From an uncultured delta proteobacterium (GTDB lineage Bacteria > Desulfobacterota > Binatia > Binatales > Binataceae), in the NCBI GenBank assembly GCA_963842085.1, contig CAWJET010000002.1:672001-736000 (forward strand): 64,000 nt of DNA, given 5' to 3'. Below are positions 5,428-7,867 of this stretch, piece after piece (positions within the stretch are counted from its first letter, which is position 1; each line of letters starts with the position of its first letter). The notes beneath the pieces are model-generated. The model worked only from the letters and a program-made list of their open reading frames with translations, made no database searches and was not told the DNA's origin. Both the position numbers and the translations under genes were made by a program.

Positions 5428-6240
5428 ATGTCAGTTTACGCGCATAAGAAACCGCCCAGGTCACACGCGCCCAGGACCGTCAAGCGCCGTGCCGCCTTTT
5501 ACGATCTGGACGGCACGCTGGTCGATCTGAACCTGGTGCATGCCGCGATTTTCACGCTCGCCAACGTCGGTGAATGGACCGGACGTGCTTCGTACCTGCT
5601 CGGATTCGCCGCGCGAATCCCGCGCTTGTACGTTGCCGAACAGCGCGACCGCCGACTGCTGAATACGGTGCTGTTCGAGGCGTTCAAAGGTATCTCGCGC
5701 GACCGGCTGTCTTCGCTGGGCGAGGAATATTGCGAGCGCATCCTCATAGGGCATCTGTTTCCGCGCGCGCTGGAATTGATCGCGGCGAATCGCGCGGCCG
5801 GAATCGAGCCGGTGCTGGTGACGGGTTCGCCGGACTTCATCGTGGCGCCCCTGGCGCGTCACCTGGGGATCGCCGACTTCGCCGCGAACCGATTTGTCTT
5901 CAGCCGCGGCCGCGCGACCGGCCGGCTGGCCGAACCGGTTATGGCGGGCGACGAGAAAGCGGTCTGGTGCGAGGACTACGCTGCCGCGCACGACATCGAC
6001 CTGGCGGATTGCTGGGCTTACGCCGACTCGCACTACGACACCGCGTTTTTGGCCGCGGCCGGGCATCCCGTGGCCGTCAACCCCGACCGCAGATTGCGCG
6101 CGGCCGCGCTCAGCCGGCAATGGCCGGTGCTCCACTTCGAGACGGCAGCGTCTTCGGAGCGGGCCTACGATTTCGACAACGACCTGGACCCCAACCACGA
6201 CGGCGAACGATCGACGCGAGGCTCGAATGGCGCGCCCTGA
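5428..6240 (+). CDS. HAD-IB (SerB-like) phosphatase
   Basis: Motif I FYDLDGT, motif II VTGS, motif III K, motif IV YADSHYD, PVAVNPD. Confidence 0.9.
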   Translation: MSVYAHKKPPRSHAPRTVKRRAAFYDLDGTLVDLNLVHAAIFTLANVGEWTGRASYLLGFAARIPRLYVAEQRDRRLLNTVLFEAFKGISRDRLSSLGEEYCERILIGHLFPRALELIAANRAAGIEPVLVTGSPDFIVAPLARHLGIADFAANRFVFSRGRATGRLAEPVMAGDEKAVWCEDYAAAHDIDLADCWAYADSHYDTAFLAAAGHPVAVNPDRRLRAAALSRQWPVLHFETAASSERAYDFDNDLDPNHDGERSTRGSNGAP

Positions 6241-7867
6241 AGCAAAGCTCAAGGAACTGAAAACTGCCGAGCTGCGGCACGAGGTCGGCGCGCGAAGCGA
6301 GCTGGTCGTCAAGGTGAATCGGCGCTCGGAGCGCCGCGTCATCCCGTACGGCGAGGAATTTCTGTTCGAGAAACTGCCGGTCTGCACGCGCGTGATCTAT
6401 CCGCCGCCGCCGCTCGATCCTCTCGCCGACCCTGACCAGGCGATTCGCTACGCGCTGTTGCATCCGGAGAACCAGGATCCGTTGTTCGCGCAGCTCAGTC
6501 CCAACATGCGCGTAACGATCGCGATCGACGACATCAGCCTGCCGCTGCCGCAGATGCGCCGGCCCGATATCCGCGAGCGGCTGTTGAACCAGGTGTTGCA
6601 GACGCTCGCCGATTACGGGGTTGACGACGTTCACCTGGTGATCGCGACGTCGCTGCATCGGCGGATGACCGAGGCGGAGATTCGCCGCGTCGTGGGCGAG
6701 CGCGCGTTCAAGCAGTACTGGCCGGACCGGCTGTACAACTTTGACGCGGAAAATCGCGCCGAGCTTTCGATGCTCGGCAAGACGGAGAATGGCGAAGAAG
6801 TGTGGCTGTCGCGGCGCGCGGCGGAGTCGGACCTGCTCATCTATTTGAACATCAACCTGGTGCCGATGGACGGCGGGCACAAGTCGGTCGCGGTCGGACT
6901 CGCGCCCTACCAGAGCCTGCGGCATCACCACAACGTCTCGACGTTGCGCGATTCGCATTCGTACATGGACCCGACACGGTCGGCGTTGCATCGCTCGTCG
7001 GACCGGATGGGCAAGCTGATTCACCAGTCGCTCAACATTTTTCAAGTCGAAACGGCGGTGAATACGCGGATGTACGGCGGGATGCTCGACTTCCTGCACA
7101 AGAACGAGGACCGCTTCACCGACTGGGATCGCACGCGTCTGAAAGGCTTTCAGTGGACGATGCGCAACATGTCCAATGAGATGCGGCGCACCGTGCTGCA
7201 CAACTACGCGGCCCCGTACGGAATGATCGGCGTGTGGGCGGGCGATACCGAGGCGGTGCATCGCAACGCGCTTGCACGCGTGTTCCAGCAATACGCGGTG
7301 CCGGTGAAGGGCCAGGCGGACATTCTAATTGTCGGCGTGCCGTACATCTGTCCATACAACGTGAACTCGATCATGAATCCTGTGCTCGTGCAGTGCACCG
7401 GGCTGGGCTACCTGTTCAACATGTATCGGAACAAGCCGCTGGTGCGCGAAGGCGGCACGATGATCGTCTGTCATCCGCTGCGCGACGAATTTCATCCCGA
7501 GCATCATCCGAGTTACATCGAGTTTTTCCATCGATGCCTGGCGGAGACGACCGATGCGGTTGAGCTCGAGAAAACTTTCGAGCGCGAGTTCGCGCGCAAC
7601 CCGACGTACATTCATATGTACCGCTACGGCAACGCGTACCACGGCGTGCATCCGTTCTACATGTGGTACTGGGGTGAGCCGGCGCGGCAGCACGTCGGGC
7701 GCGTGATCGCGGCGGGATGCGAAGAGCCGGACGTCGCGGCGCGCCTTGGATGGGAAGCGGCGGACACGCTCGACGAGGCGATCGCGATGGCGACGTCGGA
7801 GCTGGGGCGCTCGGCCTCCATAACCTACCTGCACCTGCCGCCGCTGGTGATCGCGGATGTCGAGTAG
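6227..7867 (+). CDS. Lactate racemase (LarA/DUF2088) fold protein
   Basis: [31 protein letters not shown] 6227 overlaps the end of the HAD gene. Confidence 0.8.

What the first reader, a model, noticed from the sequence alone, without database searches (positions are those of the whole stretch)
6227..7867. LarA-fold protein in a lipid operon, a candidate for the ether-forming or stereo-inverting step
Seen: SLHR, GGHKS and a downstream HH align by eye with the LarA catalytic His, cofactor-anchoring Lys and Ni-binding His. The second catalytic His region (PH..G.SGG.K in LarA) reads [10 protein letters not shown] here, with no His. No larB/C/E genes are in the window. Known: LarA uses the nickel-pincer nucleotide for hydride transfer, and none of the four ElbD domains is a known ether-bond-forming catalyst. 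Inference: this subfamily may do non-racemase chemistry on an ACP- or lipid-bound glycerol derivative.
Basis: partly seen in the sequence, partly recalled or inferred. Interest (0 to 1): 0.7.

Follow-up and report, generated by a model that had tools for sequence, protein, structure and literature searches.

The report
Nickel-pincer enzyme relative in ether-lipid operon
This gene is the counterpart of ElbC, the unexplained protein of the bacterial ether-lipid gene cluster; it is a relative of nickel-dependent lactate racemase that keeps the cofactor-holding residues but lacks the racemase-specific ones, so it is a testable candidate for the unknown ether-forming chemistry.

Summary
Window 6227-7867 (+) encodes a 546-aa LarA-fold protein. 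It scores 833.8 bits against NCBIfam NF052592 (LarAH14/15/16; cut-off 740). The AF2 model (pLDDT 89.8) is closest to the single-histidine LarA homologues 9Q3K/9Q3J. Asp102, His144, Lys219 and His235 (LarA D72, H108, K184, H200) are invariant in 36 relatives. The second catalytic His174 and the carboxylate binders Arg75 and Lys298 are replaced.

The gene sits between a HAD phosphatase (ElbB-like) and an ElbD-like FAR/adenylation/ACP/acyltransferase gene, in the position of myxobacterial ElbC ("unknown function").

In 121 Myxococcota genomes, 59 of the 60 with this protein also have ElbD, and 0 of 59 without it do. All 60 have LarC, against 18 of 44 genomes with no LarA homologue. The window's genome has larB, larC and larE elsewhere, and this is its only LarA homologue. 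However, LarC is near-ubiquitous in its own phylum, so that point is weak.

The missing His174 and the lipid-gene context of LarAH groups 14/15 are already published. The link to elb ether-lipid synthesis was not found in print.

My best reading is a nickel-pincer-dependent, non-racemising hydride-borrowing enzyme of the ElbD pathway. The ether-forming role is plausible but untested.

The parts
4758..5426 (+). TetR-family regulator, first gene of the operon in Binatia-like loci
   Evidence: Pfam TetR_N 8e-16 and TetR_C_24. Upstream of the HAD gene in the Binatia-like loci that reach that far.
5428..6240 (+). HAD-IB phosphatase, ElbB-like; overlaps the LarAH start by 14 nt
   Evidence: Pfam HAD 8.1e-31. 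TIGR01490 118.8 bits, over the 98.3 cut-off. Motif residues D26, D28, K177, D200 and D204 are invariant in 23 sequences. Adjacent to the LarAH gene in 23/23 Binatia-like loci and 35/47 loci from other phyla.
6227..7867 (+). LarA homologue of group 14/15 type (ElbC orthologue), 546 aa: the finding itself
   Evidence: NF052592 833.8 bits, over the 740 cut-off. AF2 pLDDT 89.8. Foldseek hit 9q3k_A, E 3.9e-33, TMt 0.85.
6530..6532 (+). Asp102 codon, equivalent of LarA Asp72 (cofactor ribose contact)
   Evidence: Invariant in 36/36 sequences. Aligned to LarASp Asp73 (residue role from PMC12611868).
6656..6658 (+). His144 codon (SLHR), equivalent of catalytic His108
   Evidence: Invariant in 36/36 sequences. 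Aligned to LarASp His115.
6848..6877 (+). Loop Asn208-Gly217 ([10 protein letters not shown]) in place of the His174 loop; it has no His, and Asn208 is invariant and Asn210 nearly so
   Evidence: It is 4 residues shorter than in LarASp and 1 shorter than in LarA Lp.
6881..6883 (+). Lys219 codon (GGHK), equivalent of the NPN-tethering Lys184
   Evidence: Invariant in 36/36 sequences. Aligned to LarASp Lys195 and LarA Lp Lys184.
6929..6931 (+). His235 codon, equivalent of the Ni-coordinating His200
   Evidence: Invariant in 36/36 sequences. It lies 16 residues after the Lys, as in LarA, and aligns to LarASp His211.
7857..12236 (+). ElbD-like multidomain protein: FAR (NAD_binding_4 + weak Sterile), AMP-binding, PP-binding, acyltransferase; its start overlaps the LarAH stop by 11 nt
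   Evidence: Pfam. 36-45% identical over its full length to Myxococcota ElbD homologues.
12320..12856 (+). Dual-specificity-phosphatase-fold protein (Binatia-specific extension of the operon)
   Evidence: Pfam DSPc 1e-16. Found with the cluster only in Binatia-like loci.
12858..13634 (+). CDP-alcohol phosphatidyltransferase, phosphatidylcholine-synthase-like (below the family cut-offs)
   Evidence: Pfam CDP-OH_P_transf 1.2e-7. NF045886 187 bits, below the 440 cut-off.
13615..15417 (+). 600-aa protein of unknown function, last gene of the Binatia-type operon
   Evidence: No Pfam or NCBIfam hit. The nearest Atlas clusters are Binatota hypotheticals, about a quarter of them carrying DUF7064.

Best explanation
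The gene encodes the ElbC orthologue of a Binatia (Candidatus Binatus-like) genome. It is a LarA-superfamily protein of the published 'group 14/15' type. It most likely carries the nickel-pincer nucleotide (NPN) on Lys219, with His235 completing the Ni coordination and His144 as the only acid/base. It lacks the second histidine and all carboxylate-binding residues, so it is most likely not a 2-hydroxy-acid racemase. I infer that it uses NPN for a redox-neutral 'borrowed hydride' step, taking a hydride from an alcohol carbon and returning it to the same face after an intervening chemical step. The substrate would be non-carboxylate and probably phosphorylated or lipidic, within the ElbB/ElbC/ElbD alkyl-glycerol ether-lipid pathway.

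The specific version I favour runs as follows. The FAR domain of ElbD makes a fatty alcohol. ElbC oxidises it transiently to the aldehyde. The aldehyde condenses with a glycerol-phosphate hydroxyl, and the stored hydride reduces the resulting oxocarbenium to the ether. ElbD's AGPAT-like domain then acylates sn-2, and ElbB removes the phosphate from a pathway intermediate.

Shown: identity, fold, residue conservation, operon position, and co-occurrence with ElbD, ElbB and LarC. Inferred: NPN binding, non-racemase chemistry and the step catalysed.

My odds: family identity 0.95; functional tie to ElbD 0.85; NPN-dependent 0.8; not a hydroxy-acid racemase 0.75; ether-bond-forming step 0.3.
For: Identity and fold:
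- NF052592 scores 833.8 bits against a 740 cut-off, whereas canonical LarA NF033504 scores only 73.6 against 460.
- The AF2 model has pLDDT 89.8.
- The best structural matches are the NPN-binding single-His LarAHs 9q3k and 9q3j, followed by other LarA racemases.

Cofactor residues:
- D102, H144, K219, H235 and the GG motif are invariant in 36 sequences. By record titles these come from Binatia, Myxococcota, Acidobacteriota and Planctomycetota.
- The substrate-side residues of LarASp, Tyr307 and His401, are kept as invariant Tyr377 and His475.

Lost racemase residues:
- There is no His in the 174 loop.
- Arg75 is replaced by Leu105 and Lys298 by Asn384.
- The Frankia group-14 protein was inactive on 7 hydroxy acids (PMC7583248 Table 1).

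Pathway tie:
- The gene is overlap-coupled to the HAD gene and to elbD.
- The HAD gene is adjacent in 23/23 Binatia-like loci and 35/47 loci from other phyla.
- Corallococcus exercitus shows the order SDR-HAD-LarAH-ElbD-SDR, which is the published elbA-E order.
- In 121 Myxococcota genomes, ElbD is in 59 of the 60 ElbC genomes plus the 2 with fragmentary ElbC, and in 0 of 59 without ElbC. The two genes are often on different contigs.

NPN supply:
- The window's own genome has LarC at 463 bits, LarE at 324.6 (cut-off 150) and LarB at 292.5 (cut-off 175), and only one Lar_N gene, this one.
- LarC is present in 38 of 40 genomes holding ElbC loci, and in 20 of the 21 where ElbC is the sole Lar_N gene.
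- In Myxococcota, LarC is in 60/60 ElbC genomes (49 of them with ElbC as the sole LarA homologue) against 18/44 genomes with no LarA homologue. None of the 26 LarC-less genomes has ElbC.
- LarB and LarE score over cut-off in 5/5 sole-ElbC genomes tested.

Chemistry precedent:
- NPN enzymes oxidise hemiacetals and reduce aldehydes in NphT (PMC13524815, abstract and sections read).
Against: - No experiment shows NPN binding for any group-14/15 protein. NPN loading of the inactive Frankia LarAH14 was not established.
- In the window's own phylum sample, LarC is near-ubiquitous: 134/151 genomes have it, including 54 of the 67 with no LarA-homologue match. Its presence in this genome is therefore weak evidence.
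- Non-LarA users of the cofactor exist, namely AKR-type NphT and an NPAD cyclodeaminase. I did not search this genome for them.
- Two of the 40 ElbC genomes showed no LarC (G153, G175; completeness unknown).
- The Arg that binds the NPN phosphate in LarA (a Lys in LarASp) is Leu here.
- Co-occurrence counts are over related genomes and are not independent events.
- M. xanthus genetics as summarised in the review PMC9131029 (passages read): an elbB insertion, which should be polar on elbC, lowered ether lipids less than an elbD insertion did, and was partly rescued by elbD alone. This argues against ElbC being strictly required.
- An SDR (ElbE-like) often sits next to the gene in Acidobacteriota and Myxococcota (9/41 immediately downstream), so an ordinary NAD(P)H reductase could do the redox work.
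- Dehydrative etherification by hydride borrowing has no enzymatic precedent that I know of (recalled).
- I could not inspect model coordinates, so no lipid tunnel or pocket geometry was checked.
Confidence: 0.55

Rival explanations
1. NPN-dependent transient oxidation at C2 of the glycerol backbone. ElbC oxidises 1-acyl-sn-glycerol-3-phosphate to enzyme-bound acyl-DHAP, the acyl group is exchanged for a fatty alcohol (an AGPS-like swap), and the hydride is returned to give 1-alkyl-G3P.
For: It rests on the same cofactor and single-His evidence as the best explanation. The tight pairing with a phosphatase suggests a phosphorylated substrate. The sister group 17 sits among triose-phosphate/glycolysis genes and held an unidentified ligand that the authors modelled, speculatively, as a phosphorylated aldose (PMC12611868 section 2.6), and it shares Tyr377, His475 and Arg466 equivalents. 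The ElbD route works largely without AGPS in M. xanthus (review).
Against: AGPS needs a flavin as covalent catalyst for the exchange at C1 (recalled), and nothing equivalent is evident here. In some Acidobacteriota loci the neighbours are FAR and SDR only, with no acyltransferase within 10 kb. It is untested.
Confidence: 0.17
2. It is a stereo-inverting enzyme: a glycerol-phosphate (G3P/G1P) or 2-hydroxyacyl (thio)ester epimerase acting on a lipid precursor.
For: Every characterised LarA-family enzyme inverts a C2 hydroxyl stereocentre (PMC7583248, PMC11770544). A thioester- or ester-bound 2-hydroxyacyl substrate would explain the loss of the carboxylate-binding residues. NCBIfam names the family a 'hydroxyacid isomerase'.
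Against: The LarA mechanism needs a base on each face, and only His144 is available. The authors of the single-His structures argue that such enzymes could at most be unidirectional. The Frankia LarAH14 was inactive on 7 hydroxy acids. No need for inverted glycerol stereochemistry in these lipids is known to me (recalled).
Confidence: 0.1
3. The protein does not use NPN at all. It is a LarA-fold scaffold using another cofactor or none, for example a binding or chaperone subunit for ElbD or ElbB. Its link to LarC would then be phylogenetic coincidence.
For: LarC is common even without LarA homologues: 54/67 in the own-phylum sample and 18/44 in Myxococcota. The Arg75 equivalent is lost. Desguin et al. 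judged the neighbouring group 16 to have lost its cofactor residues. Two ElbC genomes had no LarC match.
Against: The Lys tether, Ni-binding His, catalytic His, ribose-binding Asp and GG motif are invariant across four phyla at about 50% overall identity. ElbC was never seen in the 26 LarC-less Myxococcota genomes. The closest solved relative binds NPN covalently on the same Lys.
Confidence: 0.15

Closest known systems
LarA homologue groups 14 and 15 of Desguin et al. 2020 (NCBIfam NF052592, 'LarAH14/15/16 family')
   Same: The protein is a full-length member, scoring 833.8 bits against a 740 cut-off. It has the same signature as the published group-15 row (D L H - - F K H ... N). The gene context also matches the paper's supplement: COG0204 acyltransferase, COG0560 phosphatase, COG3320 reductase, COG1022 acyl-CoA synthetase.
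   Different: Nothing differs at the sequence level; this is a new member from Binatia. The published groups are listed as 'unknown function', and in the passages and supplements I read they are not connected to the elb ether-lipid cluster.
LarASp / LarABw, single-histidine LarA homologues (group 17; PDB 9Q2U, 9Q3K, 9Q3J; PMC12611868)
   Same: These are the closest solved structures (E 3.9e-33, TMt 0.85; profile E 6.6e-53). They share the Asp, catalytic His, Lys tether, Ni-binding His, the loss of His174, Asn at the Lys298 position, and the Tyr307/His401/Arg392 equivalents.
   Different: Identity is only about 20%. The His174 loop is 4 residues shorter. LarASp His306 is Pro376 here, and the Lys76 phosphate binder is Leu105. 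Their gene context is carbohydrate/glycolysis, not lipid. The octamer interface was not examined.
Lactate racemase LarA of Lactiplantibacillus plantarum (PDB 5HUQ/6C1W)
   Same: The two-domain fold is shared (TMt 0.77), as are D72, H108, K184, H200 and the SGGxK motif.
   Different: His174, Arg75, Lys298, Tyr294 and Gln295 are not kept. The protein is about 110 residues longer. It scores far below the LarA family cut-off (73.6 against 460).
ElbC of the Myxococcus xanthus elbA-elbE ether-lipid cluster
   Same: The position between the HAD gene (elbB) and elbD is the same. The protein is 50-55% identical to the Corallococcus and Archangium proteins in that position. The review describes elbC as encoding a protein of unknown function.
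   Different: The M. xanthus sequence itself was not in hand, so orthology is argued through Corallococcus exercitus and other Myxococcaceae. The Binatia operon lacks the elbA/elbE SDR genes. Instead it has TetR, a DSP phosphatase, a Pcs-like transferase and an unknown 600-aa protein.
Alkylglycerone-phosphate synthase (AGPS), the known aerobic ether-bond-forming enzyme
   Same: It is a possible functional analogue. Both would replace or create the sn-1 linkage using a fatty alcohol from a FAR, and both would use a redox cofactor without net redox (recalled for AGPS).
   Different: The fold and cofactor are unrelated (FAD against NPN). No biochemical evidence exists for ElbC.
NphT, NPN-dependent aldo-keto-reductase-fold hydride transferase (PMC13524815)
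   Same: It shows that the nickel-pincer cofactor can do non-racemase hydride shuttling on aldehyde/hemiacetal carbons without a carboxylate.
   Different: It has a different fold (TIM barrel) and carries out intermolecular transfer on sugars.

Membership tests
LarA superfamily (NPN-dependent enzymes) | Two-domain LarA fold with an N-terminal Lar_N domain | tested here: met
   Pfam Lar_N 7.9e-36. The AF2 model matches 9q3k, 9q3j, 9eia, 5huq, 2yjg, 6d6z and 4nar, and no other fold at E<=1e-3.
LarA superfamily (NPN-dependent enzymes) | Lys that tethers NPN (K184) and His that binds Ni (H200) | tested here: met
   Lys219 and His235 are aligned to these positions and invariant in 36/36 sequences.
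LarA superfamily (NPN-dependent enzymes) | First catalytic His (H108) and ribose-binding Asp (D72) | tested here: met
   His144 and Asp102 are invariant.
LarA superfamily (NPN-dependent enzymes) | Cofactor actually bound (nickel, +450 Da adduct) | not testable with these tools
   Needs protein chemistry. It was not established for the one group-14 protein ever purified.
LarA superfamily (NPN-dependent enzymes) | larB, larC and larE present in the genome | tested here: met
   All three score over cut-off on contig C1. Discriminating power is low in this phylum but good in Myxococcota.
2-hydroxy-acid racemases/epimerases of the LarA type (LarA, Mar, Hgr, GntE, Sar) | Second catalytic His (H174) | tested here: not met
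   There is no His in residues 208-217. Asn210 or Val212 occupies the position, depending on the alignment. Published as a gap for groups 14/15.
2-hydroxy-acid racemases/epimerases of the LarA type (LarA, Mar, Hgr, GntE, Sar) | Carboxylate-binding Arg75 and Lys298 (plus Tyr294/Gln295) | tested here: not met
   Leu105 aligns at Arg75. Asn384 aligns at Lys298 by the published group-15 signature and the LarASp alignment.
2-hydroxy-acid racemases/epimerases of the LarA type (LarA, Mar, Hgr, GntE, Sar) | Score over the curated cut-off of a characterised equivalog model | tested here: not met
   LarA 73.6 against 460; Mar LarAH6 93.5 against 500; LarAH10 87.6 against 540; LarAH5 87.1 against 462.
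NCBIfam NF052592 LarAH14/15/16 | Full-length score over the curated cut-off | tested here: met
   833.8 bits against 740, covering residues 27-546 on model positions 2-520.
Elb ether-lipid cluster, ElbC position | Gene lies between the HAD gene (elbB) and the multidomain elbD | tested here: met
   The Corallococcus exercitus locus has the full elbA-E order, as described in the review.
Elb ether-lipid cluster, ElbC position | Genome-wide co-inheritance with ElbD | tested here: met
   In the Myxococcota sample of 121 genomes: 59 have both (plus 2 with fragmentary ElbC), 1 has ElbC only, 0 have ElbD only, and 59 have neither.
Elb ether-lipid cluster, ElbC position | Loss of the gene changes ether-lipid content | not testable with these tools
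   No elbC mutant is reported in the review passages I read. The primary paper (Lorenzen 2014) is not held.

The most novel reading that the evidence does not exclude
ElbC is a nickel-pincer-dependent ether synthase. It borrows a hydride from the fatty alcohol made by ElbD's reductase domain, lets the aldehyde condense with glycerol phosphate, and returns the hydride to form the 1-O-alkyl bond. That would make it the missing AGPS-independent ether-forming catalyst of myxobacteria, Acidobacteriota and Binatia. It would also be the first nickel enzyme of lipid biosynthesis, and a biological counterpart of pincer-metal 'borrowing hydrogen' alkylation.
Probability: 0.25. Interest if true: 0.9.

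Novelty: new variant of a known kind. Interest (0 to 1): 0.62.

Why it matters
How the ElbD route makes the ether bond without AGPS has been open since the cluster was described in 2014; the review PMC9131029 still marks these steps as uncharacterised. Separately, the nickel-pincer field lists LarAH groups 14/15 as 'unknown function' with one catalytic histidine missing.

This analysis joins the two open questions. The unexplained ElbC is that LarA group. It is inherited with ElbD almost one-to-one, and in the Myxococcota sample it was never found without the nickel-insertion gene LarC.

That gives an immediately testable prediction: ether-lipid synthesis in Myxococcus should depend on nickel, on larB/C/E and on elbC. 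If true, it extends NPN chemistry from small hydroxy acids to membrane-lipid synthesis. It would also bear on which bacteria can be inferred to produce alkyl-glycerol lipids from their genomes.

In my searches, no paper held both 'elbD' and 'lactate racemase', and the one paper holding both 'nickel-pincer' and 'ether lipid' concerns haloarchaeal annotation issues.

Tried and rejected
- **ElbC-ElbB complex prediction.** The tool's queue was full and it was then declared unavailable, so nothing was folded. Whether the two proteins bind is open.
- **RNA evidence.** No RNA holder was listed for 5428-12236.
- **Apparent long fusions.** The LarAH frames in L035 (1302 aa) and L047 (929 aa) show no extra Pfam domain, and the HAD gene lies in another frame. 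They are open frames in high-GC DNA, not fusions.
- **larBCE in the own genome as proof of NPN use.** I weakened this after the control, which showed LarC in 54 of 67 LarA-less genomes of the same phylum sample.
- **Neighbours of larB, larC and larE in the own genome.** None is an AKR or a cyclodeaminase. I did not screen the whole genome for NphT-type AKRs.
- **Earlier notes of this scan.** None fit.
- **Primary literature.** The elb paper (Lorenzen 2014) is not held. What I say about M. xanthus mutants comes from review passages only.
- **Model coordinates.** They are not available to scripts, so no superposition-level check of Asn210 and no pocket analysis was possible.
- **AGPS.** I did not search for AGPS in the own genome.
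- **Rows dropped.** L059, L062 and L066 were left out of the HAD alignment because their matches contain stop codons. Only 40 of the 80 ElbC loci were sent to the LarC and Lar_N genome searches; I chose them for long flanks and taxonomic spread.
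Full report
**What is there.** The ORF list shows a frame open from 5894, but the gene begins at ATG 6227. That start has a GAGG a few bases upstream and overlaps the stop of the preceding gene by 14 nt. The gene ends at 7867, 11 nt after the start of the next gene.

- Pfam finds only the N-terminal LarA domain (Lar_N, 7.9e-36, residues 57-243).
- NCBIfam finds a full-length curated family: NF052592, 'NPN-dependent hydroxyacid isomerase, LarAH14/15/16 family', at 833.8 bits against a 740 cut-off.
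- The models for characterised racemases score only 74-94 bits against cut-offs of 460-540.

**The surrounding genes.** The genes on the + strand form a tightly packed operon:

| Coordinates | Product |
|---|---|
| 4758-5426 | TetR regulator |
| 5428-6240 | HAD-IB phosphatase |
| 6227-7867 | the LarA homologue |
| 7857-12236 | 1459-aa protein: fatty-acyl reductase, AMP-binding, carrier-protein and acyltransferase domains |
| 12320-12856 | DSP-fold phosphatase |
| 12858-13634 | phosphatidylcholine-synthase-like CDP-alcohol transferase |
| 13615-15417 | 600-aa unknown protein |

The rest of the window is housekeeping: RimO, LolA, FtsK, RNase J, IlvB, aconitase, GltX, GuaA, Der.

**Whose genome.** The window is contig 2 of a complete two-contig 4.93-Mb genome. 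The closest loci in public genomes are Candidatus Binatus / Binataceae MAGs, at 78-97% protein identity. Next come Planctomycetota, Myxococcota (Corallococcus, Archangium), Bryobacterales and Terriglobia, at 50-58% over the full length (lineage of Binatus).

**Equivalence with ElbC.** The review PMC9131029 (passages read) describes the M. xanthus cluster as follows:

- elbA: SDR
- elbB: HAD
- elbC: 'protein of unknown function'
- elbD: FAR/ACS/ACP/AGPAT
- elbE: SDR

In the complete Corallococcus exercitus genome, the homologue of the window protein lies in exactly that order: SDR, HAD, LarA homologue, 1476-aa ElbD, SDR. So the finding is the ElbC orthologue.

Across the 80 loci fetched:

- The HAD gene is within 500 bp on the same strand in 23 of 23 Binatia-like loci with enough flank. 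In other phyla it is so placed in 35 of 47 loci, with 6 more farther away in the locus.
- A full ElbD follows directly in 23 of 23 Binatia-like loci and 18 of 41 other loci.
- Of the remaining other-phylum loci, 3 of 41 have only the reductase part, 9 of 41 an ElbE-like SDR, and 11 of 41 none of these.

The phosphatase is therefore the most constant neighbour.

**Genome-wide co-occurrence.** I sampled 121 Myxococcota genomes (completeness at least 90).

- The family scores over cut-off in 60 genomes and is fragmentary in 2 more.
- A search with the Corallococcus ElbD at E<=1e-120 hits 61 genomes. These are 59 of the 60, plus the 2 fragmentary ones, and none of the 59 without the family.
- In many genomes the two genes are on different contigs or far apart, so this is not just operon hitch-hiking.
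- These are related genomes, so the counts overstate independence.

**Fold and active site.** An AlphaFold2 model built on 36 relatives has mean pLDDT 89.8 and pTM 0.89. All 19 Foldseek hits at E<=1e-3 are LarA-family chains.

- Next come Isosphaera LarA and L. plantarum LarA (TM 0.77).

I mapped residues using the HMM alignments and the residue roles given in PMC12611868 (sections 2.1, 2.4-2.6 read):

| Residue here | Equivalent | Role |
|---|---|---|
| Asp102 | LarASp Asp73 / LarA Asp72 | contacts cofactor ribose |
| His144 | His115 / His108 | catalytic |
| Lys219 | Lys195 / Lys184 | thioamide tether |
| His235 | His211 / His200 | Ni ligand |

All four, and the GG before the Lys, are invariant in the 36 sequences. 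Tyr377, His475 and Arg466 correspond to LarASp Tyr307, His401 and Arg392 near the unidentified ligand, and they too are invariant.

The racemase-specific residues are absent:

- The loop that carries His174 is shorter and has no His. Asn210 (nearly invariant) or Val212 takes the position, depending on the alignment.
- Arg75 is Leu105.
- Lys298 is Asn384, and Tyr294/Gln295 are Ser/gap. This follows the published group-15 signature row (supplement of PMC7583248) together.

**What is already in print.**

- Desguin et al. 2020 (PMC7583248) defined groups 14 and 15 and listed them as 'Unknown function'. They tabulated their neighbours (acyltransferase, phosphoserine-phosphatase-type, thioester reductase, acyl-CoA synthetase, SDR) and found a Frankia group-14 protein inactive on seven hydroxy acids. 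They could not establish the extent of cofactor loading.
- Gatreddi et al. 2025 state that groups 14 and 15 lack the His174 equivalent.

I could not find the connection to the elb ether-lipid cluster in print:

- 'ElbC' with 'ElbD' returns only the review.
- 'nickel-pincer' with 'ether lipid' returns one paper, on haloarchaeal annotation issues.
- 'elbD' with 'lactate racemase' returns nothing.
- A broader six-term search listed nothing pertinent among its 15 top rows.
- The 2026 sponge-symbiont preprint on elb clusters mentions neither LarA nor DUF2088.

The primary elb paper is not held, and bioRxiv supplements are closed, so a remark there could have escaped me.

**Does it use the nickel-pincer cofactor?** Evidence for:

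- The conserved tether and ligand residues.
- The fact that the nearest solved relative binds NPN on the same Lys.
- Gene co-occurrence. The window's genome has LarC (463 bits), LarE (324.6 against 150) and LarB (292.5 against 175), dispersed on contig 1, and exactly one Lar_N gene, this one.
- Of 40 genomes holding ElbC-type loci, 38 have LarC. In 21 of the 40 ElbC is the only Lar_N gene, and 20 of those have LarC.
- LarB and LarE are over cut-off in 5 of 5 such genomes tested.
- In the Myxococcota sample, LarC is in 60 of 60 ElbC genomes (49 of them with no other LarA homologue) and in 15 of 15 genomes with other LarA homologues only. It is in only 18 of 44 genomes with none, several of those as partial forms. 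All 26 LarC-less genomes lack ElbC.

Evidence against:

- In the sample of the window's own phylum, LarC is in 134 of 151 genomes, including 54 of the 67 with no LarA-homologue match. There, LarC says little.
- Other folds use the cofactor: NphT-type aldo-keto reductases and an NPAD cyclodeaminase (PMC13524815).
- The neighbours of larB/C/E in this genome include no such gene, but I did not screen the whole genome.
- Two ElbC genomes showed no LarC. One of them also has stop codons in its HAD match.

**How it probably works.** Some of this is shown and some inferred.

Shown: a LarA fold with cofactor-holding residues, one acid/base, and no carboxylate site; obligate partnership with ElbD and a phosphatase.

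Inferred:

- A stereo-inverting reaction needs a base on each face, so a single-His enzyme is better suited to abstracting a hydride and returning it to the same face after another chemical event. This is 'hidden redox', as in many NAD-dependent transient-oxidation enzymes (recalled).
- ElbD's reductase domain carries a weak 'Sterile' C-terminal match typical of alcohol-forming FARs (30.5 bits, below cut-off). Its acyltransferase is AGPAT-like, that is, suited to acylating sn-2 of a 1-substituted glycerol phosphate.
- My favoured scheme is therefore: fatty alcohol to aldehyde on NPN; hemiacetal with a glycerol-phosphate hydroxyl; loss of water; hydride return giving 1-O-alkyl-glycerol phosphate; sn-2 acylation by ElbD; and dephosphorylation by ElbB at some stage.
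- In the Binatia operon, the Pcs-like transferase and the DSP phosphatase could then add a head group.
- NphT shows that the cofactor handles aldehyde/hemiacetal carbons.
- The main alternative is transient oxidation of glycerol C2 (an AGPS-like exchange). It fits the phosphatase link and the triose-phosphate context of the sister group 17, but it lacks the covalent catalyst that AGPS needs (recalled).

Points against the ether-forming role:

- The review reports that an elbB insertion, which should be polar on elbC, reduced ether lipids less than an elbD insertion and was partly rescued by elbD alone.
- ElbE-type SDRs are frequent neighbours, although the window's genome has no close ElbE homologue (29% identity at best).

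**Verdict.** The protein is a new member of a published but functionally unassigned LarA group. Its identity with ElbC, its near one-to-one inheritance with ElbD, and its dependence on LarC in Myxococcota are, as far as my searches show, new. They make a decade-old gap in bacterial ether-lipid biosynthesis directly testable.

Noticed in passing
window 12320-15417: In Binatia-like loci only, the elbB-C-D genes are followed by a DSP-fold phosphatase, a phosphatidylcholine-synthase-like CDP-alcohol transferase (187 bits, below the 440 cut-off) and a 600-aa protein with no family hit (Atlas neighbours are Binatota hypotheticals, about 25% with DUF7064). This suggests a dedicated head-group branch for the product.
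   Followed up: partly
genomes G001-G150 (sample of the window's GTDB phylum): LarC is present in 134 of 151 genomes, including 54 of the 67 with no detectable LarA homologue. Most of this phylum seems to make the nickel-pincer cofactor for clients that are not LarA-like.
   Followed up: no
G010, G087, G051, G144, G113, G080, G043, G111, G041: These genomes have full-length matches to NF052592 at 460-560 bits, well under the 740 cut-off. They form a divergent sister set of the ElbC family in the window's phylum. Their gene context was not examined.
   Followed up: no
G182:C1:5904065-5905843 and G165:C111:1856-3682: larC and larB are adjacent in Corallococcus exercitus and in a Myxococcota MAG, far from the elb cluster. 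In the window's genome larB, larC and larE are all dispersed.
   Followed up: partly
L059 (G175), L062, L066; G251, G257: The HAD matches next to ElbC contain stop codons in three Bryobacterales MAGs, and G175 also lacks a LarC match. ElbC itself is broken or split in two Myxococcota genomes that still have ElbD. This could be decay or long-read assembly errors.
   Followed up: no
PMC12611868, sections 2.4 and 2.5: The paper names the Ni-binding residue of LarASp as His211 in one section and His221 in another. The deposited chain has His at 210/211 and none at 221, so 211 is the consistent number.
   Followed up: yes
window 6227-6300 (residues 1-24): The N-terminal ~21 residues are predicted as a low-confidence helix (pLDDT<50). 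Matches from other phyla begin anywhere from query residue 1 to 37, so this N-terminal stretch is only partly shared and its role is unknown.
   Followed up: no
window 15428-64000: The second contig carries core genes (RimO, LolA, FtsK, RNase J, acetolactate synthase, aconitase, Lhr-type helicase, GltX, GuaA, Der, MtaB). It therefore behaves as a chromosome or chromid rather than a plasmid.
   Followed up: partly
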